DNA of 64,000 nt from Mobula hypostoma (lineage: Eukaryota). The notes below the pieces were generated by a model, which saw nothing but the letters and a program-made list of their open reading frames with translations, was not told where the DNA came from and ran no database searches. The stretch spans positions 58,964,001-59,028,000 of the forward strand of contig NC_086097.1 of the NCBI RefSeq assembly GCF_963921235.1. Direction: 5' to 3'. This document shows positions 1,514-63,401 of the stretch, piece by piece. Numbering within the stretch: position 1 is the first letter of the stretch; every line of letters starts with the position of its first letter. The position numbers and the translations under genes were made by a program.

Positions 1514-4504
1514 AAAAAATTACTCCAGCACCCCAGGGCACATTCAAAACCCAGACTCCAGCACCATCACTGGCGGCTCCAAAGACCATGGACACCTTCA
1601 AAGCGATTGCGCAACCACCAACTGCGACTCCAGCCTTGAACTCCTGGCCAGGTCTTCACATGCTGCTATTGTGACTCCCGTCTCCCCTTCCTCACCACCA
1701 CTCTGCAACCCCGTCTCCCTCAGATACCCCCGTCAACTCCTGGACCTTCAGAGGCTCCATCTTCCTCTCACCCCAACCCTCCCCCTCCACTGACACTACC
1801 AGCCTCCCTCCCCCTCCACTGACACTACCAGCCTCCCTCCCCCTCCCCCCTCAGATCCCACTTCTCATCCGTGCCAGGTCTTTACCATCCCCTCCAATCT
1901 TCAACTCTCTGAGGCAGAACGCTCTGTCCTCAGTAAGGGCCTTACCTTTTTCCCCCTTCACCCACACCTCAACGAGTTCCGTGTTCGCCATGATGCTGAA
2001 CTCTTCTTCCGCCGGCTCCATCTTCAAGCCTACTTCTTTGGCAAGGACTCTCCCACCCCCACCGATGACCCCTACTCCCATCTTCAATCCTCCTCCTCTT
2101 CATGGACACCCCGCTCTGGTCTTCTGCCTGCTCTGGATCTCTTTATTGCTAACTGCCGATGGGATATCAACTGTCTCGAATTTACCGCACCTTGTTCCCA
2201 TTCCAATCTCACTCGTTCTGAACGCTCTGCTCTCCACTCCCTCCGCACTAATCCTAACCGTACTATAAAACCCGCCGATAAATGGGGTGCTGTTTTACCC
2301 TGGCGTACTGACCGCTACCTTGCCAAGGCACAGCGACAACTCGCGGATACCTCCTCTTATTTACCCCTCCATCATGACCCCTCTAAGGAGCACCAGGCCA
2401 TTGTCTCACACACCATCACCAACATTATCGGCTCAGAAGACCTCCCATCCACTGTTACCAACCTTTAGTTCCCACACCCCGCACTTCCCGTTTCTACCTC
2501 CTACCCAAGATCCACAAAGCTGCCTGTCCAGATAGACCCATTGTTTCAACATGCTCCTGCCCCACCGAACTCATTTCTGCATACCTCGACACTGTTTTAT
2601 CCCCCCTTGTTCAATCCCTTCCTACCTATGTTCGTGACACTTCTCACACTCTGAATTTTTTCAATGATTTTAAGTTCCCTGGCCCCCACCGCTTTATTTT
2701 CACCATGGATGTCCAGTCCTTATATACTTCCATCCCCCACCAGGAAGGTCTCAAAGCTCTCCGCTTCTTTTTGGATTCCAGACCTAACCAGTTCCCCTCT
2801 ACCACCACTCTGCTCCAACTAGCAGAATTAGTCCTTACTCTTAATAATTGCTCCTTTGGCTCCTCCCACTTCCTCCAAACTAAAGGTGTAGCCATGGGCA
2901 TCCGTATGGGTCCCAGCTATGCCTGCCTTTTTGTTGGCTTTGTGGAACAATCCATGTTCCAAGCCTATACTGGTGTCTGTCCCCCACTTTTCCTTCACTA
3001 CATCGATGACTGCATTAGCGCTGGTTCCTACACGCATGCTGAGCTCGTTGACTTCATTAACTTTGCTTCCAACTTTCACCCTGCCCTCAAGTTTACCTAG
3101 TCCATTTTTGACACCTCCCTCCCCTTTCTTGATCTTTCTGTCTCTGTCTCTGGAGACAGCTTATGTACTGATGTCTACCATAAGCCTACGGACTCTCACA
3201 GCTACCTGGACTATTCATATTCCCACCCTGTCTCTTGCAAAAATGCCATCCCCTACTCACAATTCCTCCATCTCTGCCGCGTCTGCTCTCAGGATGAGGC
3301 TTTTCATTCCAGGACGAAGGAGATGTCCTCCTTTTTTAAAGAAAGGGGCTTCCCTTCCTCCACCATCAACTCTGCTCTCAAACGCATCTCTCCTATTTCA
3401 CGCACATCTGCTCTCACTCCATCCTCCGGCCACCCCACTAGGAATAGGGTTCCCCTGGTCCTCACCTACCACCCCACCAGCCTCCGGGTCCAACATATAA
3501 TTCTCCGTAACTTCCGCCACCTCAAACGGGATCCCACCACTAAGCACATCTTTCCCTCCCCCCCTTTCTGCTTTCCGTAGGGATCGCTCCCAACGTGACT
3601 CCCTTGTCCATTCATCCCCCCCATCCCTTCCCACCGCTCTCCCTCCCGGCACTTATCCTTGTAAGCGGAACACGTGCAACACATGCCCTTACACTTCCTC
3701 CCTCACCACCATTCAGGGCCCCAGACAGTCCTTCCAGGTGAGGCGACATTTCACCTGTGAGTCGGCTGAGGTGATACACTGCATCCGGTGCTCCCGATGT
3801 GGCCTTCTATATATTGGTGAGACCCGACGCAGACTGGGAGACCACTTTGCTGAACACCTACGCTCTGTCCGCCAGAGAAAGCAAGATCTCCCAGTGGCCA
3901 CATGTTTTAATTCCACATCCCATTCCCATTCTGATATCTCTATCCACGGCCTCCTCTACTGTAAAGATGAAGCCATACTCATGTTGGAGGAACAACACCT
4001 TATATTCCGTCTGGGTACTCCAACCTGATGGCATGAACATTGACTTCTCTAACTTTCGTTAATGCCCCACCTCCCCTTCATACCCAATCCGTTATTTATT
4101 TATTTAATTTATTATTTTCTTTTCCCTTTTTTTTCTCTCTTTTTTCTCCCTCTGTCCCTCTCACTATACTCCTTGCTCATCCTCTGGGCTCCCCCTTCCT
4201 TTCTCCCTAGGCCTCCCGTCCCATGATCCTCTCCCTTCTCCAGCCTCGTATCCCTTTTGCCAATCAACTTTCCAGCTCCTAGCTCCATCCCTCCCCCTCC
4301 TGTCTTCTCCTATCATTTCGGATCTCCCTTCCCCCTCCCACTTTCAAATCTCTTACTATCTCTTCTTTCAGTTAGTCCGGACGTAGGGTCTCGGCCGAAA
4401 ATTTCGACTGTACCTCTTCCTATAGATTCTGCCTGGCCTGTTGCGTTCACCAGTATTTTTTGTGTGTGTAGCTTGAATTTCCAGCATTTGCAGATTTCCT
4501 CATG
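1514..4504 (+). mobile_element. Penelope-like element (RT + GIY-YIG endonuclease), 5'-truncated, disrupted ORF
   Basis: ORF pieces carry PLE RT motifs (MDVQSLYTSIPH, QTKGVAMG, YIDD at 2705-3100) and GIY-YIG (CIRCSRCGLLYIGETRRRLGDHFAEHLR, 3738-4028). Pyrimidine-rich 3' region and degenerate hammerhead tail at ~4370-4505. Candidate TSD TTTA(A/C)AATATTTTT at 1500-1513 and 4505-4518. Confidence 0.93.
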
Positions 4505-4870
4505 TTTACAATATTTTTGATTCATTTTTATTTTGTATCACAATTTGCAATGGAGTTTGAAGGAGAAACACTTTTCTAAAATTAGGGAGACACATTTGGA
4601 CTGCGTGTACACTGCAAAGACTATTTTTTCTGATATCAACTTATTGCTCATCCCTCTCCCATCACCTCAGCATTTATCATTGTGGAAATCCTGTCCTCAA
4701 AACCCCATCACTCCAACTTTCTTTCCACTTTTCCGGCCTTCCTTTGAACCCACTTCATCAAGCAAACTTTACATTGTCTTATTTTAATGGCTCTTTACCT
4801 CTGTGCCTTCATTTGGCTTTTGGAGCTTGGATTTACGGTCAGCTTCAGAAATACAATATCAATTTATGCT

Positions 4871-9273: not shown

Positions 9274-9847
9274 GATACTGTGGTGAAGCTTGTTGATAAC
9301 TTCAAGATCCTAGATTTAAATCTCACCCACAATTTCTACTAGACTAACCATGTCTCTATGGCCAAGAAGAAACACCAGAGTGTCTACCTCCTCAGAAGGC
9401 TAAGGAAATTTCACATGTCCTCAATGACTCTTACCAATTTTTACAGATGTGCCATGAAAAGCATCCCATCTTGAAGGAGCTTAGTATGACAATCGCTTTG
9501 TCCAAGACTGGAAATAATTGCAGAGAATGGTGAACGCAGCTCAGTCTATCCTGCAAATCAGCCTCTCCTCCATCGACTCTGCCTACTCTTCCTGCTTCAT
9601 CAGGAAAAAGGTACAGACTCAAGGATCCCCTCCCACCCAGGGCAGCCATTCTTTTTTCATCCCTCTCCTTTCAAGAAGAACATAAAAAAGCTTGAGAGTA
9701 CATTCTACCAGACTCAAGAACAGCTTTTATTCTTCTGTTATCAGATGGCTGAACTGCCGCTAAAGGATAAACTCTTGATCTCCCAATTTACTTTCATGTA
9801 ACCCTTGCACTTTATTTGTCTACCAACTCTGCAGTTTCTCTGTAACT

Positions 9848-11578
9848 TAGAAACATAGAAATATAGAAAAACCTACAGCACAATACAAGCCCTTCCACCC
9901 ACAAAGCTGTGCCGAACATATTCTTTCCTTAGAAATTATGGAGGTACCCTCTATTTTTCTGAGCTCCATGTACCTGTCCAGGAGTCTCTTAAAAGATCCT
10001 ATTATATCCACCTCCACCACCGTCACTGGCAGCCCATTCCACGCACTCACCACTCTCTGCGTAAAAAACGTACCCCTGATATCTCCTCTGTACCTACTTC
10101 CAAGCACCTTAAAACTGTGCCCTCTTGTGCTAACCATTTCAGCCCTGGGAAAAAGCCTCTGACTATCCACACGATCAATGCCTCTCATCATCTTATACAC
10201 CTCTATCAGGTCACCTCTCATCCTCCGACGCTCCAAGGGAAAAAGGACAAGTTCACTCAACCTATTCTCATAAGGCATGCTTCCCAATCCAGGCAACATC
10301 CTTGTAAATCTCCTTTGCACTTTTCTATGGTTTCTACATCCTTCCTATAGTGAGGCGACCAGAGCTGAGCACAGTACTCCAAGTGGGATCTGACCAGGGT
10401 CCTATATAGCTGCAACATTACCTCTTGGCTCCTAAACTCAGTCTCACGATTGACGAAGGCCAATGCACTGTATGCTTTCTTAACCACAGAGTCAACCTAC
10501 ACAGTAGCTTTGAGTATCCTGTGGACTTGGACCCCAAGGTCCCTCTGATCCTCCACACTGCCAAGAGTCTTACCACTAATACTATATCCTGACATCATAT
10601 TTGACCTGCCAAAATGAACTACCTCACACTTTTTTGGGTCGAACTCCATCTGCCACTTCTCATCCCAGTTTTGCAACTGATCAGTATCCCTCTGTAACCT
10701 CTGACAGCCCTCCACACTATCCACAATACCTCCAACCTTTGTGTCATCAGCAAATTTACTAACCCATCCCTCCACTTTCTCATCTAGGTTATTTACAAAA
10801 ATTATGAAGAGTAGGGGTCCCAGAACAGATCCCTGAGGCACACGACTGGTCACCGACCTCCATGCAGAATATGATCCATCTGCAACTGTTCTTTACCTTC
10901 TGTAGGCAAGCCAGTTCTGGATCCACAAAGCAATGTCACCTTGGATCCCATGCCTCCTAACTTCCTCAATAAGCCTTGCATGGGGTACCTTGCCAAATGC
11001 CTTGCTAAAATCCATATACACTACATCTACTGCTCTACCTTCATCAATGTGTTTAGTCACATCCTCAAAAAATTCAATCAGGCTCATAAGGCATGACCTG
11101 CCTTTGACAAAGCCATGCTGACTATTCCTAATCACATTGTGCCTCTCCAAATGTTCATAAGTTCTGACTCTCAGGATCTTCTTCATCAACTTACCGACCA
11201 ATGAAAACTCACTGGTCTATAATTTCCTGGGCTATCTCTACTCCTTTTCTTGAATAATGGAACAACATCTGCAATCCTCTAATCCTCCGGAACCTCTCCC
11301 GTCCCTACTGATGATACAAAGATCATCACCAGAGGCTCAGCAATCTCCTCCCTCACCTCCCACAGTAGCCTGGGTTACGTCTCATCTGGTCCCAGTGACT
11401 TATCCAACTTGATGCTTTCCAGAAGCTCCAGCACATCCGCTTTCTTAATATCTACATGTTCGCGCTTTTCAGTCCACTGTAAGTCATCCCTATAATCGCC
11501 AAGATCCTTTTCCGTAGTGAATACTGAAGCAAAGGACTCATTAAATACCTTTGCTATCTCCTCCGGTTCCATACACAC
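9848..11578 (-). mobile_element. CR1 LINE, 5'-truncated (RT and 3' tail)
   Basis: ORF pieces SQHGFVKGRSCL, VYMDFSKAF, VPQGSVLGPLLF, KFADDTK, RRRMRGDLIEVYK. (TTCTATRT)n-like tail at 9848-9870. Confidence 0.95.
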
Positions 11579-18993: not shown

Positions 18994-21900
18994 AATATAA
19001 AAATTGCTGGTGAACGCAGCAGGCCAGGCAGCACCTATAGGAAGAGGTACAGTCGACCTTTTGGGCTGAGACCCTTCGTCAGGACTAACTGAATGAAGAG
19101 CTAGTAAGAGATTTGAAAGTGGGAGGGGGAGGGGAAGATCCGAAGTGGTAGGAGAAGACAGGAGGGGGAGGGATGGAGCCAAGAGCTGGACAGGTGATTG
19201 GCAAAGGGATATGAGAGGATCATGGGACAGGAGGCCTAGGGAGAAAAAAAGGGGGAGGGGGGAAGCGCAGAGGATGAGCAAGGGGTATAGTGAGAGGGAC
19301 AGAGGGAGAAAAAGGAGAGAGAGAGAAAAAATTAACAATAATAAAAATAAATAAGTAACGGATGGGGTATGAAGGGGAGATGGGGCATTAACAGAAGTTA
19401 GAGAAGTCGATGTTCATGCCATCAGGTTGGAGGCTACTCAGACGGAATATAAGGTGTTGTTCCTCCAACCTGAGTGTGGCTTCATCTTTACAGTAGAGGA
19501 GGCCGTGGATAGACATATCAGAATGGGAATGGGACGTGGAATTAAAATGTGTGGCCACTGGGAGATCTTGCTTTCTCTGGCGGACAGAGCATAGGTGTTC
19601 AGCGAAACGATCTCCCAGTCTGCGTCGGGTCTCGCCAATAGCCAATATATAGAAGGCTGCATCGGGAGCACCGGACACAGTATTTCACCCCAGCCGACTC
19701 ACAGGTGAAGTGTCGCCTCACCTGGGATGGCTGTCTGGGGCCCTGAATGGAGGTGAAGGAGGAAGTGTAAGGGCACGTGTAGCACTTGTTCCGCTTAGAG
19801 GGATGAGTGCTGGGAGGGAGATCGGTGGGAGGGGATGGGGGGGGCGAATGGACAAGGGAGTTGCGTAGGGAGCGATCCCTGTGGAAAGCAGAGAAGTCGG
19901 GGAGGGAACGATGTGCTTACTGGTGGGATCCCATTGGAGGTGGCGGAAGTTACCGAGAATTATATGTTGGACCCAGAGGCTGGTGGGATGGTAGGTGAGG
20001 ACAAGGGGAACCCTATTCCTAGTGGGGTGGCTGGAGGATGGGGTGAGAGCAGATGTGCGTGAAATAGGAGAGATGCGTTTGAGAGCAGAGTTGATGGTGG
20101 AGGAAGGGAAGCCCCTTTCTTTAAAAAAGGAGGACATCTCCTTCATCCTGGTATGAAAAGCCTCATCCTGAGATGTGGTGGAGATGGAGGAACTGCGAGA
20201 AGGGGGTGGCATTTTTGCAAGAGACAGGATGAGAAGAGGAAGAGTCCAGGTAGCTGTGAGAGTCCGTAGGCTTATAGTAGACATCAGTACATAAACTGTC
20301 TCCAGAGATAGAGACAGAAAGATCAAGAAAGGGGAGGGAGTTGTCGGAAATGGACCAGGTAAACTTGAGGGCAGGGTGAAAGTTGGAGGCAAATTTAATG
20401 AAGTCCATGAGCTCAGCATGCATGCAGGAAGCAGCGCCAATGCAGTCGTCGATGTAGAGAAGGAAAAGTGGAGGACAGATACCAGTATAGGCTTGGAACA
20501 TGGATCGTTCCACAAAGCCAAAAAGGCAGGCATAGCTGGGACCCATACAGGTGCCCATGGCTACACCTTTAGTTTGGAGGAAGTGGGAGGAGCCAAAGGA
20601 GAAATTATTAAGAGTAAGGACTAATCCCGCTAGACGGAGCAGAGTGGTGGTGGAGGGGAACTGATTAGGTCTGGAATCCAAAAAGAAGCGGAGAGCTTGG
20701 AGAGCTTTGAGACCTTCCTGGTGGGGGATGGAAGTATATAAGGACTGGACATCCATGGTGAAAATAAAGCAGTGGGGGCCAAGGAACTTAAAATCATTGA
20801 AAAAATTCAGAGTGTGAGAAGTGTCACAAACATAGGTAGGAAGGGATTGAACAAGGGGGGATAAAACAGTGTCGAGGTATGCAGAAATGAGTTCGGTGGA
20901 GCAGGAGTGAGCTGAGACAATGGGTTTACCCGGACAGGCAGGTTTGTGGATCTTGGGTAAGAGGTAGAAACGGGAAGTGTGGGGTGCGGGAACTATAAGG
21001 TTGGTAGCAGTGGATGGGAGATCCCCTGAGCTGATACAGTTGGTGATGGTGTGGGAGACAATGGCCTGGTGCTCCTTAGTGGGGTTGTGATTGAGGGGTA
21101 AATAAAAGGGGGTATCCACATATTGTCGCAGTGCCTCGGCAAGGTAGAGGTCAGTACACCATACTACAACAGCACCCCCCTTAATGGCAGGTTTTATAGC
21201 AAGGTTAGGATTAGTATGGAAGGAGTGGAGAGCAGAGCGTTCGGAAGGAGTGAGGTTGTAATGGGAACAAGGTGTGATGAAGTCGAGACTGTTGATGTCC
21301 CGTCGGCAGTAAAGAGATCCAGAGCATGCAGAAGACCAGAGTGAGGTGTCCATGAAGAGGAGGAGGGTTGAAGACTGGAGAAGGTATCATCGGTGGGGGT
21401 GGGAGAGTCTTTGCTGAAGAAGTAGGCTCAAAGATGGAGCCGGCGGAAGAGGAGTTCAGTGTCATGGTGGACGCGGAACTCGCTGAGGTGTGGGCGAAGG
21501 GGGACAAAGGTGAGGCCCTTACTGAGGATAGAGCGCTCTGCCTCAGAGAGTTGAAGGTCAGAGGGGATAGTGAAGACCTGGCATGGATGAGAAGTGGGAT
21601 CAGAGGGGGGGAGAGGGAGGGTGGTGTCAGTGGAGAGGGGAGGGTCGGGGTGAGAGGAAGAAGGAGACTCCGAGGGCCCAGGAGTAGATGATGGAATGTG
21701 AGGGAGACAGGGTTGCAGAGTGGTGGGGGCCTCCCGTCCCATGATCCTCTCATATCCCCGTTGCCAATCAACTTTCCAACTCTTAACTCCATCCCTTCCC
21801 CCTACTGTCTTCTATCATTTTGGATCTCCCCTCCCTCCCCACTTTCAAATCTCTTACTATCTCTTCTTTCAGTTAGTCTTGACGAAGGGTCTCGGCCCGA

Positions 21901-22014
21901 AACGTCGACTGTACCTCTTCCTATAGATGCTGCCTAGCCTGCAGCATTCACCAGCAACTTTTATGTCTGTTGCTTGAAATTCCAGCATCTGCAAATTTCC
22001 TTGTGTTTGTGTTT
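18994..22014 (-). mobile_element. Penelope-like element with inverted terminal pLTR
   Basis: 396-aa RT stretch at 20163-21353 (MDVQSLYTSIPH, YIDD) and GIY-YIG at 19388-19678. The 3' repeat 18994-19236 is present again inverted at 21728-22014. TSD TTA(A/G)AACACTACCT at 18980-18993 and 22015-22028. Confidence 0.94.
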
Positions 22015-49953: not shown

Positions 49954-52795
49954 TGTGAAGTACCTCAGTGCAAGAAGCATCAGGAACAAAGGTGATGAAC
50001 GGAGAGCTTGGATACATACATGGAATTATGATGTAGTAGCCATTACAGAGACTTGGCTGGCACCAGGACAGGAATGGATTCTCAACATTCCTGTATTTCA
50101 GTGCTTTAAATGGGATAGAGAGGATGGAAAAAGGGGAGGAAGGGTGGCATTACTGGTCAGGGATACTATTACAGCTACAGAAAGGGTGGGTAATGTAGCA
50201 GGATCCTCTTTTGAGTCAGTATGGGTGGAAGTCAGGAACAGGAAGGGAGCAGTTACTCGACTGGGGGCAGTCTATAGGCCCCCTGGTAGCAGCAGAGATA
50301 CAGAGGATTAGATTGGGAGGCAGATTTTGGAAAGGTGCAAAAATAGCAGGGTTGTTATCATGGGTGACTTTAACTTCCCTAATATTGATTGGCACCTGAT
50401 TAGTTCTAAGGGTTTAGATGGGGCAGAGTTTATTAAGTGTGTCCAGGACAGATTCCTGTCATAGTATGTGGACAGGCCGACGAGGGGGAATGCCATACTA
50501 GATCTAGTACTAGGTAATGAACTGGGTCAGATCACAGATCTCTCAGTGGGACTGTGACCACCACTCCCTGGCCTTTAGCATTATCATGGAAAGGGATAGA
50601 ATCAGAGAGGACAGGAAAATTTTTAATTGGGGAAGGGCAAATTATGAGGCTATAAGGCTAGAACTTGCGGGTGTGAATTGGGATGATGTTTTTGCAGGGA
50701 AATGTACTATGGACATGTGGTTGATGTTTAGAGATCTCTTGCAGGATATTAGAGATAAATTTGTCCCGGTGAGGAAGATAAAGAATGGTAGGGTGAAGGA
50801 ACCATGGGTGACAAGTGAGGTGGAAAATCTAGTCAGGTGGAAGAAGGCATCATACATGAGGTTTAGGAAGCAAGGATCAGATGGGTCTATTGAGGAATAT
50901 AGCGTAGCAAGAAAGGAGCTTAAGAAGGGGCTGAGAAGAGCAAGAGGGGGCGTGAGAAGGCCTTGGCAAGTAGGGTAAGGGAAAACCCCAAGGCATTCTT
51001 CAAATATGTGAAGAAAAAAAGGATGACAGGAGTGAAGGTAGGACCGATTAGAGATAAAGGTGGGAAAATGTGCCTGGAGGCTGTGGAAGTGAGTGATGTC
51101 CTCAATGAATACTTCTCTTTGGTATTCACCAATGTGAGGGAACTTGATGATGGTGAGGACAATATGAGTGAGGTTGATGTTCTGGAGCATGTTGATATTA
51201 AGGGAGAGGAGGTGTGGGAGTTGATAAAATACATTAGGACGGATAAGTCCCCGGGGCCTGACGGAATGTTCCCCAGGCTGCTCCACAAGGCAAGGGAAGA
51301 GATTGCTGAGCCACTGGCTAGGATCTTTTCGTCCTCGTTATCCACAGGAATGGTACCGGAGGATCAGAGGGAGGCGAATGTTGTCCCCTTGTTCAGAAAA
51401 AGTAGTAGGGATAGTCCGGGTAATTGTAGACCAGTGAGCCTTACGTCTGTGGTGGGAAAGCTGTTGGAAAAGATTCTTAGAGATAGGATCTGTGGGCATT
51501 TAGAGAATCATGGTCTGATCAGGGACAGTCAGCATGGCTTTGTGAAGGGCAGATTATGTCCAACAAGCCTGATAGAGTTCTTTGAGGAGGCGACCAGGCA
51601 TATAGATGAGGGTAGTGCAGTGGATGTCATCTATATGGAGTTTAGTAAGGCATTTGACAAGGTTCCACATGGTAGGCTTATTCAGAAAGTCAGAAGGTAT
51701 GGGATCCAGGGAAGTTTGGCCAGGTGGATTCAGAATTGGCTTGCCTGCAGAAGGCAGTGGGTGGTGGTGGAGAGAGTACATTCAGATTGGAGGATTGTGA
51801 CTAGTGGTGTCCCACAAGGATCTGTTCTGGGACCTCTACTTTTTGTGATTTTTATTAATGACCTTGATGTAGGGGTAGAAGGGTGGGTTGGCAAGTTTGC
51901 AGATGACACAAAGGTTGATGGTGTTGTAGATGGTGTAGAGGATTGTCAAAGATTGCAGAGAAACATTGATAGGATGCAGAAGTGGGCTGAGAAGTGGCAG
52001 ATGGAGTTCAACCTGGAGAAGCGTGAGGTGGTACACTTTGGAAGGACAAACTCCAAGGCAGAGTACAAAGTAAATGGCAGGATACTTGGTAGTGTGGAGG
52101 AGCAGAGGGATCTGGGGGTACATGTCCACAGATCTCTGAAAGTTGCCTCACAGGTGAATAGGGTAGTTAAGTAAGCTTATGGAGTGTTACCTTTCATAAG
52201 TCGAGGGATAGAGTTTAAGAGTCGCGATGTAATGATGCAGCTCTATAAAACTCTGGTTAGGCCACACTTGGAGTACTGTGTCTAGTTCTGGTCGCCTCAC
52301 TATAGGAAGGATGTGGAGGCATTGGAAAAGGTACAGACGAGATTTACCAGGATGCTGCCTGGTTTAGAGAGTATAAATTATGATCAGATTTAAGGGAGCT
52401 AGGACTTTACTCTTTGGAGAGGAGGAGGATGAGAGGAGACATGATAGAGGTGTACAAGATAATAAGAGGAATAGATAGAGTGGATAGCCAGCACCCCTTC
52501 CCCAGAGCACCACTGCTCAATACAAGAGGACATGGCTTTAAGGTAAGGGGTAGGAAGTTCAAGAGGGATATTAGAGGAAGCGTTTTTACTCAGAGAGTGG
52601 TTGGTGTGTGGAATGCACTGCCTGAGTCAGTGGTGGAGGCAGATACATCAGTGAATTTTAAGAGATTACTAGACAGGTATATGGAGGAATTTAAGGTGGG
52701 GGCTTATATGGGAGGCAGGGTTTGAGGGTCGCCACAACATTGTGGGCCGAAGGGCCTGTACTGTGCTGTACTATTCTATGTTCTATGTTCTATGT
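49954..52795 (+). mobile_element. CR1 LINE with near-complete but disrupted ORF2 (APE endonuclease + RT)
   Basis: YLSARSIRNK, DVVAITETWL, YRPP, MGDFNFP, CDHH. 403-aa RT stretch at 50963-52174 (VPQGSVLGP, KFADDTK). (TTCTATG)n tail. Several stops and frameshifts. Confidence 0.96.
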
Positions 52796-58597: not shown

Positions 58598-59310
58598 CTG
58601 TGAAATCTTCATCGGATCTCCAACACAATGCTGCAACTTCCTGTCCCAGTGTCATGCACTTTGAGCTCCAATCATCTCCGTATTTTACAGATCAAACCAA
58701 GATTGCTGTTGTGATCTTTCTTTTGACTGAGAAAGCTCTGACCAGGGCCACCTCTAACTGGGACAATAAGACCCCCATTTGCAACCGATATGAGAATTTC
58801 ATCATTGAGATGCACTGGATTTTCGACCATCTGGGAAGTGGGAGGGAGGCAGCAGATCAGGTACTTAGCCTGCATCAAGGCTCATGCTCAATACTGGATT
58901 ACAACGTGGAATTCAGGACCCTTGCGGTGGATTCTGGTGCAACAGGCAACTCTCTGGACTAGATTCTGTGTGTGGAGCTTGGAGTCCATATAGAGCCTAT
59001 CTCTCACCCTTTCTCCATCACAGCCATTGACAGACATCCCTTGGAGTCTGGGATAGTTAGAGCGTATACACGATCTGTACTCAGGAGCATTAGAGAGCAC
59101 CACACGTGCAGCCAATTCCTCCTTATCGACTCATCCAACACTTCTCTCATCCTGGGTAACGCCTGGCTCTCCAATCACAATCCTCACTTCACCCGGTCGT
59201 CTGGTTCACTGCTGAGTTGGGGACCTGCCTGCCAAGCCACCTGCCTGCAACCTCAGTTGATTTCACCCCATAATTCCGTGAAGAAGGAGGAAAGTCTCAA
59301 CTTTACCAAA
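58598..59310 (+). mobile_element. Ty3/Gypsy (sushi-ichi/PEG10-RTL1-like) gag-protease relic
   Basis: Gag motifs FIGSPTQCCNFLSQC, HFELQ, KIAVVIFLLTEKAL, FDH, LHQGSCSILDYNVEFRTLA. Aspartic protease VDSGATGNSLD...LILGNAWLSNHNP. Confidence 0.85.
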
Positions 59311-59937
59311 GGTGTTATTGTCTTTTTTAAATGCACTTGTTATGATCACAAGAGTCTTCTGGATGTTGAGAACTTAAAGTGCTGCAGGGCTACCCCATCA
59401 GCGAGGGGCAGAGAAGCTGAAGGAGCTGGACTTACTGTGGATTGTGCTGTGTCAGAGAAGTCGGTGTACCAAGGTGCTGCGCAGCCTAGCAGTCAGTGAT
59501 TGTCATAGTCACGTCTCTTGTGATCACAAGACCCTGCTGGACATTGGCAATGTGGAATGTTGCAGGTCCAATTCACTGTTCTATTGCTGAACGGCATGGG
59601 AGTTATGTGGCCTTCGTCATAGCCACGAGTAGGCCTCCTACCTCACTGTCGCCCGTTTGCAGCCAACCAGGAGGAAAGTGTTGGAGTTGGTGCGCTCTAC
59701 CTGAGACAGCGTGGCACAGCATCCATGCTGGAGACAATGCTGCTCTCCAGTGTTTGCTCGGCAGAAAACTAGATGTATTGCGTTTGGCTGCTGACTGCTG
59801 CAACATTTGTGGACTCAGGGACTTAGACTTTATATTTTTTTGTTTCTGACTGTATTTTGTTGTTGTCTTGTATGTGCAATGTGTGCCTTATGCTGTGAAT
59901 GACTGCTAGTACTGTGTTTTGCACTTTATTCCCAGAA

Positions 59938-62213
59938 CGTCATCTGGGTTGGTCATGGTGGGAGCATAGGCACTAATCAGCGTAGCACTCTTCTTGTTTG
60001 CAAGTGGGAGCTAAAGTGTCATCAGGCGGTCGTTGATGCTCTCGGGGTGCTTGGTGAGTTTATGGGCGGGGTTAGAATTGATAACAAATCCCACGCCTGC
60101 TTCTCGTCGTTCAGCGCTGCTGCGACCACTCCAGAAGAACGTGTATCCACCACTACGTTCTGTCAGCTGGCCCTTGTCTGCTGGGGGCGTTTCGCTGAGA
60201 GCTGCTATGTCCACGTTGTAGTGAGCTAGCTCTTTTGCAACCAGTGCAGTTCTTCTCTCTGGTCTGTCTGCCTTGATGTTATCTCGCAGAGCTCTCATGT
60301 TCTATGTGCCGAGGTTGAGCACCATCACTTTCTTCTTCACTGTTGTAGGTCGACCGCTATGAGGGATCCCCACCAGCCGCGGTAAGCTGGCCAGGGTGAA
60401 GTGAAGCAGACTATGTTTGAGGCACCTTTTCCAGCCCCTTCCTCCATGGAGGTGAGCAGAGCCATCCTAAAGAGGGCTGCTCAGATACCCAGGGGGCTGC
60501 CGAACTCAACTGCTGCTTCAGTCCAGTAGAGAGCGACCCTATGCCCTGGGCCGCCTGTGTGCAGGTTTGTGACTACAGCTTCCAGTGTATCCGTACCTGC
60601 TGCTTCGCCACTCCCCCATCGCCACAGGACTTTAGGTTGCGTGTTGGGTTTGAAGTCATGACTTGCGCTTGACTTGGATTAAAGTGAGGGAGAGTTGCGC
60701 AGGTCGTCAGCCTCACTCTCTCGTCCCGGCCTATCTGGACCCAGTGGCAAGACATAGTCAAGACGGCTAGAGATAGGTCAGGATGCAGTAGATGGCCAGC
60801 AGTGTTCTGTGTGTCTCACTGTGCCCTCTTAGTGCTCCACGATGCATTGCTGAGAATCGCCTTTCTGCCCGTTGAACCAGTGATGGTTTCTTCCGCGCAG
60901 TCCACCGAATCCAGGCTTCACACGCCAGGTAGACAAGCCCTGAGTGTTGTGGGTCTACGGCAGTTCTTGCGGTGTGCTCGCAAGCCTCCCTACCCATTGT
61001 TGGGCATCCTCATCCACCTTTGCAGCCATTGAGAGATGTCTCCTCTGCTGCCTTTGAGCGGGGCCACGGGTGGGTGAGTGAGAGCGTGGGCGCCGTGTCG
61101 GTGCGGGTGTTGCGCACGTCCGGCTCCCGTGGCGCCACGCTGCTGCCCTACCGGACGACCGAGGGCACGGCCAAGGTGGGCGAGGACTTCATGTTTGCTG
61201 ATGACTGCGCACTCAACGCCAGCACAGAGCAGGAGATGCAGCGTGAAATAGACTGCTTCTCACAAGCCTGCGACAACTTTGGTCTCACTATCAGCACCAA
61301 AAAGACCGAAGTTATGTACCAGCCTGCCCCAGGAAAGCCATACCAGGAGCCGCGCATCACGGTGAAGGGTCAGAACCTCCAGGCAGCCGACAACTTCACC
61401 TACCTGGGCAGCATACTCTCTCGCGCAGTGAACATCGACGCTGAGGTCAACAACAGGATTTCCAAAGCCAGTGCCGCCTTTGGGAGACTCCGTGAGAACG
61501 TTTGGGAGCGGAGAGGACTCAGCCTTACCACCAAGCTGAAGGTCTACTGTGCAGTGGTCCTTACCACCCTCCTTTATGCCAGCGAGACCTGGACTGTCTA
61601 CAGCAGACACGCCAAACAGCTCAACCACTTTCACCTGAGCTGTCTCCGCAGACTCCTCCACATCAGGTGGCAGGACAAAGTTCCCGACACGGAAATCCTG
61701 GAACGAGCTGGGCTCTGCAGCGTCTACACCCTCCTGCTGAAAGCCCAAGCCAGGTGGGCTGGACATGTGGTCAGAATGCCAGACAGCCGATTGCCTAAGC
61801 AGCTGCTGTACGGAGAACTGTGTCAGGGCAAGCGCTCAGTCGGGGGGCAGAAGAAACGTTACAAAGACTGCCTGAAAGCGTCCCTCAAAGGCCTGGGTGT
61901 CGACATCAACACGTGGGAGACGCTTGCCCTCGACCGTCCAGCTTGGCGCAGCAAGATCACCACAGGAGCCCGTGCAGCTGAAGTCAGGCGCATCATCGAG
62001 GCGCAACGAAAGTGTGCTGTGCGCAAGGCCCGAGCAGCATCCACTGCCACGACAGCACCCACCCACTTGTGTCCCACATGTGGGCGAGCCTTCAGGGCCC
62101 GGATTGGCCTCATCAGTCACCTCCGGACCCACAGCCACCAATCTCCCATTTGAATTTGAAGCCATGGTCATCTTCAACTACGAAGGACGAACAACAACAA
62201 CAACAACAACAAC
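59938..62213. mobile_element. RTE-clade LINE insertion with 5' inversion and a captured host fragment
   Basis: Minus 59938-~61049: 5' UTR and APE start (RPERRTALVAKELAHYNVDIAALSET, GYTFFWSG, ISAYAPT). Plus 61185-62213: MFADDCAL, FTYLGS, YASETW, RWAGHVVRM, CPTCGRAFRARIGLISHLRTH, (CAA)n tail. Exact 10-bp TSD ATTCCCAGAA at 59928-59937 and 62214-62223. Confidence 0.94.
61050..61190 (+). pseudogene. SLC8A: Captured fragment of a Na+/Ca2+ exchanger (SLC8A/NCX) Calx-beta domain coding sequence
   Basis: Translates AFERGHGWVSESVGAVSVRVLRTSGSRGATLLPYRTTEGTAKVGEDF, matching the NCX CBD2 start as I recall it (TFE....HVSESIG.MEVKVLRTSGARG.V.VPYKT.EGTA.GGGEDF). Very GC-rich with about 18 CpG in 141 bp. 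Paralogue not determined. Confidence 0.88.
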
Positions 62214-62296
62214 ATTCCCAGAATAACGATGTTTCATTTGGCTGTATTCATGAGTATTCATGTATGGTTGAATAACAATTAAACCTGAACTTGAAC

Positions 62297-62790
62297 TAGT
62301 TTTGGTCACCCTGAATAGGACAGATATTGTCATGCTGGAGATGATGCAGAAGAGATTTACAAGGATTCTGCCTGGACTAAAAAGGTTCAAGTTATAGGGA
62401 CAGATGGCCATGCTAGATTGCGCTTCCTTGGAGAAAAGAAGAATGAGGGGTGACCTCATAGAAGTTTATAAAATCATATAGAGTAGGGATAAGATGGGCA
62501 GTCATAGTTTGTTCCTTGGGTTGAGGAGTCCAAAAGTAGAGGGCCCAGGTACAAGATAAGAGCGGAGAGATATAAAGGAAACCTAAGAGGTAACTATTTA
62601 TGAAGAGGGCTGTGAGTACCTGGACTGAGCTGGCAGAGCAACTTCTCAAGGTGGATACAATTACAGCTTTTAAGAATTATATGAATGGGAGGGCTTGGAG
62701 TGTTATGGCCTAGGCATGGGCAATAGAGGGGATGGTGTGGTAGGCATGGGGCAGTTGGGCAGAAAGGCCTGTGCTGCATTACTCTTTGTG
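62297..62790 (+). mobile_element. Decayed CR1 3' fragment
   Basis: FWSP, MQKRFTRILPGL, SLEKRRMRGDLIEVYKI. Confidence 0.75.
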
Positions 62791-62964
62791 GTATCAGATA
62801 CAAACTAACGTTGATTAAAGAGAGATTATGTAGTGAAATACTTCTTTTTAAAGGGATCCTTTTGGAAGAGGAGAGAGGCAGACGTTTTAAGGCAAGTTCC
62901 AGAGCATCATCCTCTTTGAGTGTGATCAATAATTGAAGCTAAAGGAAATGGGGAAGTCAGAACC

Positions 62965-63180
62965 GGGTAGCATAGTGGTGCAACTAGTAGAGATTCTGCC
63001 TCAAAACTCTTTCACTTGGGTCGAATCCTGGTCTCTGGACCTGCGTTTGTGGAGTGTGCACACTCTCCCTGTGGTTATCTGGGTTTCTCCAACATCCCAG
63101 AGATATGTGACTTGGTGGGCTAATTGGTCATTGTAAATATCTCCTGGTTTGTAGGTGAATGGTTGGGTTTTGGACTCTGG
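62965..63180 (+). mobile_element. tRNA-derived V-domain SINE, diverged
   Basis: gggtagcatagtggtgcaactagtag (A box), gggtcgaatcct (B box), tgtggagtgtgcacactctccctgtg, taattggtcattgtaaat. Confidence 0.72.
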
Positions 63181-63401
63181 ACCAGAGTAAGGATGAATTG
63201 AACTTGTACAGGATACAGTATAAGTACAGCAGAAATAATTAAGTAACAAGAATGCTGTTTTATTTTCAGTTTGGTTTTTGGGGAACGTAAAAAAATGTTT
63301 ATAATGATTCTGTGGTTTGATAGTATGGATACAGAGAATTTATTTCCACTAGTTAGAAACCATGTCCAAGGAGCAAAATATTAAAACGAATGCTCTGCTT
63401 G

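What the first reader, a model, noticed from the sequence alone, without database searches (positions are those of the whole stretch)
59928..62223. Twin-priming-type 5' inversion of an RTE element in a single three-template insertion
Seen: TSD ATTCCCAGAA, then the reverse-complemented RTE 5' part (APE codons outermost, 5' UTR innermost), the SLC8A piece, the sense RTE 3' kilobase, (CAA)n and the TSD again. The RTE region between early APE and FADD is missing. Established: this outer/inner polarity is what the twin-priming model predicts, and it is best documented for mammalian L1. Inference: second-strand priming inside the RTE RNA ran to its 5' end, while the first strand jumped to a host RNA before the two were joined.
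Basis: partly seen in the sequence, partly recalled or inferred. Interest (0 to 1): 0.7.

Follow-up and report, generated by a model that had tools for sequence, protein, structure and literature searches.

The report
Front-flipped RTE retrotransposon with host fragment
A dead jumping gene in a ray-like fish landed in one event with its front part flipped and a 144-base piece of a host calcium-exchanger gene wedged in the middle, a pattern known from human L1 elements but here made by a different class of jumping gene.

Summary
The anatomy is real. One 2,276-bp insertion lies between a 10-bp duplication, and removing it restores a single older repeat. It holds an inverted RTE LINE 5' piece (59938-61053), a mid-gene SLC8A fragment (61050-61193) and the sense RTE 3' kilobase with an (AAC)8 tail. 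Both RTE halves belong to one family, and about 1.86 kb between them is missing. Unexplained: the inverted and SLC8A parts carry about three times more private changes than the 3' kilobase (p 0.001-0.02). Best reading (0.55): twin priming plus a template switch, with later overwriting of the 3' end. Main rival (0.2): one switch onto an older SLC8A/antisense-RTE block. The mechanism is known for mammalian L1; my searches found no report for RTE elements. The scan already noted a flipped RTE on other DNA of this genome (e1-7812926, unchecked).

The parts
59917..59920 (+). T run 8-11 nt upstream of the TSD, as in the published RTE target signature
   Evidence: sequence; signature from PMC6007223 passages and section 15; one site only, weak alone
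59928..59937 (+). 5' copy of the 10-bp target-site duplication, inside an older repeat
   Evidence: (tables 5, 5c)
59938..60337 (-). Inverted RTE coding piece: APE endonuclease codons 7-140, two stops, codon 140 outermost
   Evidence: tblastn and codon comparison with P0002; Pfam Exo_endo_phos E 1.6e-5
60336..61053 (-). Inverted RTE 5' leader of the long variant; 60336-60642 is absent from a short variant; ends about 240 nt before the inferred 5' end of the element
   Evidence: tables 5 and 8; 74-77% DNA identity to RTE relatives L007, L016, L001 up to 60940; length check
61050..61053 (.). 4-nt overlap (GCCT) shared by the inverted RTE and the SLC8A piece: the inversion junction
   Evidence: RTE contig match ends at 61053; SLC8A protein match starts at 61050
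61050..61193 (+). 144-nt fragment of an SLC8A (Na/Ca exchanger) gene, start of the second Calx-beta domain, same sense and frame as the RTE 3' part
   Evidence: no second copy in the window; depth near single copy in the three DNA-like runs
61185..61193 (+). SLC8A-to-RTE junction: 2 nt exact overlap (TG) inside a patch that matches RTE at 7 of 9 and SLC8A at about 8 of 9
   Evidence: X9 contig match starts at 61185 with 3 differences, all accounted for by the three amino-acid changes against P0002; inferred from protein, not from consensus DNA
61192..62189 (+). Sense RTE 3' part: RT from FADD onward, C-terminal C2H2-like finger, stop at 62151-62153, short 3' UTR
62190..62213 (+). (AAC)8 microsatellite tail
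   Evidence: sequence
62214..62223 (+). 3' copy of the TSD

Best explanation
One target-primed reverse transcription event by an RTE-clade LINE. The endonuclease cut both strands 10 nt apart (shown by the TSD). The first cDNA started at the (CAA)n tail and ran about 1 kb (shown). It then moved, at a short imperfect homology, onto an SLC8A template and copied 144 nt (junction shown; RNA template inferred). The second DNA end primed inside RTE RNA at APE codon 140 and copied 1.1 kb toward the 5' end without reaching it (polarity shown; priming inferred). The two cDNA ends were joined through 4 nt of overlap, and the 1.86 kb between the two start points was never copied. The copy has been dead since. 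The low divergence of its last 500 nt most likely reflects later overwriting by a younger copy (inferred, untested).
For: Single TSD with a clean empty site. Both halves on one family contig and one ORF. The inverted piece begins at the first base after the TSD with the downstream codon outermost. TSD length 10, first base A with a (CAA)n tail, and an upstream T run fit RTE-clade target sites. 4-nt overlap at the inversion junction; SLC8A in the sense of the first cDNA, with a homology patch at its junction. The left junction is present in a second organism's contig at single-copy depth, with T at 59938 as the family's Ile codon requires, so it is not an assembly join. L1 insertions with an extra templated piece at the inversion junction are described. 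The same polarity appears in RTE relatives in metagenome contigs.
Against: Only 1-2 nt complementarity at the second priming site, against 2 nt or more in 71% of L1 cases. The 1.86-kb gap is far longer than the 1-10 nt gaps or overlaps reported in one L1 cell study. Private changes are uneven: about 30-32 in 1115 nt (inverted part), at least 8 in 144 (SLC8A), 9-12 in 981 (3' part); Fisher p 0.001-0.02; amino-acid changes 11 of 133 against 3 of 319. A single event from fresh templates predicts equal rates, so an extra step is needed. No splice junction shows an RNA template. The metagenome inversions have no demonstrated TSD.
Confidence: 0.55

Rival explanations
1. Two templates, no twin priming here. 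An older locus already held a 5'-shortened RTE in antisense next to SLC8A sequence. Reverse transcription began on a young RTE RNA, switched once onto a transcript of that locus and ended as an ordinary 5' truncation.
For: The SLC8A piece and the inverted piece have similar, higher divergence: 8 changes observed against 4.5-6.5 expected at the inverted-part rate, but only 2.2-3.6 at the 3'-part rate. Chance-level complementarity at the outer junction fits plain truncation. An antisense RTE would place its 5' end against the downstream host sequence, as seen.
Against: No sign of a second SLC8A/RTE locus: depth over the piece is near single copy in X1, X5 and X16 (contigs only, so absence is not shown). 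It needs a transcribed, disrupted SLC8A copy. Within the 3' part, 8 of 9 listed changes lie in 61250-61682, which suits a later overwrite of the far end at least as well.
Confidence: 0.2
2. Twin priming in trans: the second end primed on the transcript of a different, already decayed RTE copy.
For: Explains the excess of stops and missense changes in the inverted part and the long gap. Opposite-orientation joins of two different RNAs are described for L1.
Against: Does not explain why the SLC8A piece also looks old. The window's alleles in the inverted part have no support in other copies at the listed sites (table 3; contigs drop rare variants).
Confidence: 0.12
3. The SLC8A piece, and perhaps the inverted piece, were copied from DNA during repair of the 5' junction, not from RNA.
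For: The piece is colinear with genomic DNA over at least 112 nt, is under 250 nt, and has short overlaps at both ends. DNA-templated inserts occur in L1 events.
Against: Those described are taken from near the target (within 15 bp in one study); this piece has no other copy in the 64-kb window. Its orientation fits mRNA, though that has a one-in-two chance.
Confidence: 0.1
4. The open 406-codon frame (Calx-beta piece plus RT tail) has been kept by selection, which is why the 3' part changed little.
For: In the 3' part 3 of 9 listed changes alter the protein, against 72% expected (p about 0.02); the frame 60933-62153 is open.
Against: The SLC8A part of the same frame has 5 amino-acid changes in 48; the RT piece lacks most of the domain; no such chimeric protein was found; the test is post hoc on few sites.
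Confidence: 0.03

Closest known systems
Twin-primed (5'-inverted) mammalian L1 insertions (model of Ostertag and Kazazian 2001, not read; seen as described in PMC2912911, PMC4245944, PMC12016303 passages)
   Same: One TSD; sense 3' part with tail; inverted 5' part starting at the TSD with the downstream position outermost; internal deletion; short overlap at the inversion junction.
   Different: RTE clade, (CAA)n tail, cartilaginous fish; only 1-2 nt at the priming site; 1.86-kb gap; a host fragment at the junction; unequal divergence of the halves.
L1 insertions with extra templates at the inversion junction (PMC11702581 section 7; 'twin priming and switching' and templated insertions in bioRxiv 10.1101/2024.08.27.596794, passages)
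   Same: Twin-priming geometry with a third piece between the two cDNAs.
   Different: Those are somatic or cell-culture L1 events; this one is germline, shared by two species, and RTE-driven.
LINE chimeras by template switching: U6-RTEX in Anolis (PMC4476161 passages), tripartite WEIRD/Mg-SINE/MGL in Magnaporthe (PMC2104539 abstract), mRNA-L1 chimeras (PMC13174262 passages)
   Same: A host sequence fused in sense to a 5'-truncated LINE inside one TSD.
   Different: PMC4476161 states that L2 and RTE clades form U6 chimeras only by template switching; here an inverted LINE piece is added and the host piece is a mid-gene fragment.
RTE-clade LINEs (RTE-1 type)
   Same: Single APE-RT ORF, microsatellite tail, 10-bp TSD starting with A.
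   Different: This copy is a rearranged, dead insertion, not a family structure.

Membership tests
RTE-clade LINE | Single ORF with APE endonuclease followed by RT | tested here: met
   P0002 has Exo_endo_phos and RVT_1 in one 1079-aa frame; both window halves match it
RTE-clade LINE | Microsatellite 3' tail and TSD of 7-15 bp, starting with A for (CAA)n elements | tested here: met
   (AAC)8 and a 10-bp TSD starting with A; ranges from PMC6007223 section 15
RTE-clade LINE | RT phylogeny places it in the RTE clade | not tested
   No tree with named references was built; the label RTE rests on architecture, tail, TSD and recall
Twin-primed 5'-inverted insertion | One TSD around both parts, none for each half | tested here: met
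Twin-primed 5'-inverted insertion | Both parts from one element family, inverted part upstream in the RNA, downstream position outermost | tested here: met
   (table 8, record 25)
Twin-primed 5'-inverted insertion | Complementarity between the target's 3' end and the RNA at the internal priming site | tested here: inconclusive
   1 nt, or 2 if the Ile codon is ATT; all 6 relatives that begin this codon with A read ATC, of 11 aligned; chance level; the family's own DNA past the breakpoint was not seen
Twin-primed 5'-inverted insertion | Short overlap at the inversion junction | tested here: met
   4 nt at 61050-61053, but with the host piece and not RTE to RTE
Twin-primed 5'-inverted insertion | Both cDNAs made at one time from the same RNA (equal age) | tested here: inconclusive
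   Divergence differs about threefold; later gene conversion or different templates cannot be told apart here
Template-switch chimera with host mRNA | Host piece in sense with the LINE, directly fused, inside the TSD | tested here: met
Template-switch chimera with host mRNA | RNA origin shown by a splice junction or other processing mark | tested here: inconclusive
   A DNA contig covers at least 61064-61175 without a break (table 3); exon map of the source gene not available

The most novel reading that the evidence does not exclude
RTE-clade LINEs routinely make twin-primed 5' inversions and can pick up host transcripts at the inversion junction, so both behaviours are general to LINEs with a 10-bp or longer overhang and not special to mammalian L1. 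This locus would be a germline record of both in one event.
Probability: 0.5. Interest if true: 0.55.

Novelty: new variant of a known kind. Interest (0 to 1): 0.4.

Why it matters
The papers I saw treat 5' inversion as almost exclusive to L1 in mammalian cells: in PMC4245944 it was found only with L1 in human cells plus one Nimb-2 insert, and overhang length was proposed as the limiting factor. An RTE element with a 10-bp TSD fits that overhang idea and makes it testable across clades by counting inverted copies. RTE elements move between species often, so they could shuffle host exon pieces in many animals. The locus itself is a dead copy with no shown function.

Tried and rejected
No whole genome is held, so the genome-wide count of inverted copies could not be made. 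Rfam found 0 matches in 59000-63200 at E up to 1 and 0 in 9 related loci at E up to 0.1, so no ribozyme marks the 5' end. The 307-nt leader segment folds no better than shuffles (z 0.33). A search for a short chimeric SLC8A-RT protein found no candidate; the longer search found only 2 exchangers among 30 candidates. No RNA holder is on record; run X9 is only guessed to be RNA, so nothing is claimed on expression. X1, whose flank contigs are identical to the window, showed no contig across 59938; contigs show presence, not absence. The right junction was not seen in any listed contig (32 pieces listed, 25,397 not shown). Two independent insertions: rejected (no own TSDs, no tail on the inverted piece, clean empty site). 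Post-insertion inversion: unlikely, as the breakpoint sits on the TSD edge. Assembly artefact: unlikely, left junction in a second organism. A multicopy SLC8A-bearing family: not supported by depth. Strand-specific editing as the cause of the excess changes: not supported, the listed changes are mixed, with CpG decay on both strands. A TSD for the inverted locus L032-L035: none convincing. PMC5389967 held the terms only in its reference list.

Full report
Setting. The window is 42% G+C with several RT-bearing repeats. The best match of the host fragment is a Mobula hypostoma protein, so the host is probably a ray; this is inferred. No whole genome is held.

One insertion. ATTCCCAGAA occurs 2 times in the window, at 59928 and 62214, enclosing 2,276 nt. 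The flanks are two halves of one older repeat. Contigs of other copies skip 59921 to 62234 with 26 letters between, which is the insert plus one TSD plus 26. The rebuilt empty site matches that repeat's consensus at 21 of 30 letters, and 6-10 of 30 when shifted. No separate TSD exists for either half. A contig of a second organism (run X5) crosses the left junction, 59813-59979, at depth 34.6 where single-copy flanks have 44-46. Its three listed flank and junction contigs differ from the window at 20 of 874 letters, so the insertion is older than that split. TSD length, first base A, the (CAA)n tail and an upstream T run fit RTE target sites as given in PMC4245944 (passages) and PMC6007223 (passages and section 15).

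One family, inverted. The best full-length relative, P0002 (1079 aa), matches the minus strand at 60337-59936 (aa 7-140) and the plus strand from 61194 to the stop. One X9 contig holds both pieces in element order with 1854 nt between. So the 5' piece is inverted, codon 140 is outermost, and about 1.86 kb is missing.

The inverted piece does not reach the 5' end. RTE likeness ends at 61053, at letter 414 of a 651-letter contig. Adding those 237 nt gives 3,907 nt plus a 24-nt tail for the short variant, close to the 3,939-nt contig on which P0002 was seen. This is an inference from lengths; I did not see those 237 letters.

Junctions. Outer: organism B has T at 59938, as the family's Ile codon requires, and the last TSD base also fits; the next does not if the codon is ATC, as in all 6 relatives that begin it with A, of 11 aligned. 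That is 1-2 nt, no better than chance. In L1, 71% of inverted inserts had 2 nt or more (PMC11702581 passage). Inversion junction: 4 nt, 61050-61053, belong to both the RTE and SLC8A. SLC8A to RTE: 2 nt exact within a 7-of-9 patch, deduced from three contig differences that equal three amino-acid differences.

Host piece. 61050-61193 matches aa 506-553 of the exchanger at 43 of 48, the start of its second Calx-beta domain. It is in sense and in frame with the RT remnant. It has no other copy in the window, and depth over it is near single copy (15, 38 and 5 in X1, X5, X16), against hundreds to tens of thousands on RTE parts. A DNA contig with the gene's alleles spans at least 61064-61175, so no intron was removed there and an RNA template is not proven. 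The X5 contig shares the window's A at 61137, which suggests the piece is also in organism B's copy; this is weak.

Uneven age. From contig difference counts (table 8) the inverted part has about 30-32 private changes in 1115 nt and the 3' part 9-12 in 981. Table 3 showed 40 rows and left 162 unshown, so these are tilings of counts, with 60116-60157 uncovered and taken as zero. Fisher p is 0.001-0.02, and weighting for CpG does not remove it. The complete amino-acid comparison gives 11 of 133 against 3 of 319 (p 0.0002). The SLC8A piece, with at least 8 changes (partly judged against another species' protein), groups with the inverted part. In the 3' part 8 of 9 listed changes lie before 61683, and 6 of 9 are silent. 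These tests are post hoc on one locus. A single event from fresh templates predicts equal rates, so either the 3' end was later overwritten, where family depth is about tenfold higher, or the inverted and SLC8A parts came as an older block.

Other RTE inversions. Of 78 metagenome loci (56 distinct groups), 77 had tblastn hits and 6 had them on both strands. Four (L032-L035) are one locus with twin-priming polarity, found in four assemblies at 99-100% identity; L003 shares its inner junction; L019 is a second junction at a contig end. None has a shown TSD, and L019 and L003 could be assembly or amplification chimeras.

Mechanism. Most likely twin priming with a template switch of the first cDNA (0.55). 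Shown: TSD, family identity, polarity, junction overlaps. Inferred: priming by the second end, RNA nature of the host template, later overwriting of the 3' end. Rivals: one switch onto an older chimeric block (0.2), priming on a decayed RTE transcript (0.12), DNA-templated patch (0.1), selection on the open frame (0.03).

What is known. Twin priming and added templates at the inversion junction are described for L1 (PMC2912911, PMC12016303, PMC13174262 and bioRxiv 10.1101/2024.08.27.596794, passages; PMC11702581, passages and section 7). Tripartite LINE chimeras are known (PMC2104539, abstract). RTE-type template switching to U6 is known, and that paper says non-L1 clades form such chimeras only by switching (PMC4476161, passages). 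PMC8501958 (passages) added nothing on inversions. Searches listed no paper whose title or abstract start reports 5'-inverted RTE insertions. The library lacks most subscription journals, Ostertag and Kazazian 2001 and Ichiyanagi and Okada 2008 were not read, and no supplements were seen; they may bear on the novelty claim.

Verdict. A real, well-bounded, dead insertion. It works like an L1 twin-primed chimera but is not an L1, and two tests of twin priming stay inconclusive. New variant of a known kind; interest 0.4.

Noticed in passing
window 60336-60642: This RTE family has a variant lacking these 307 nt of leader, which brings an upstream ATG into frame with the ORF (P0002 type). The joint is seen in runs X1, X16 and X9 but not X5. 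The long variant has no ATG at the ORF start.
   Followed up: partly
L032 3476-4697 (same locus in L033-L035, L038, L040; junction also in L003 1-776): An RTE copy in metagenome contigs with an inverted middle piece (aa 551-730) in front of the sense 3' part (aa 863-1073); twin-priming polarity, no convincing TSD.
   Followed up: partly
L019 1-130: 102 nt of inverted RTE directly before the sense part, 25 nt apart on the family sequence; the contig ends inside the inverted piece.
   Followed up: partly
window 60933-62153: An open frame of 406 codons runs from the antisense leader through the SLC8A piece into the RT tail; its first ATG (61191) probably arose by CpG decay.
   Followed up: partly
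window 1695-4507 and 18997-22008: Two copies of a 2.8-kb RT-bearing element, 88% alike, in opposite orientation; they look Penelope-like from recalled motifs, with only a weak RT match in Pfam.
   Followed up: no
window 50924-52174: A 416-codon RT frame (RVT_1, E 7e-29) of another LINE, CR1-like by recall, with a decayed relative at about 9842-11461.
   Followed up: no
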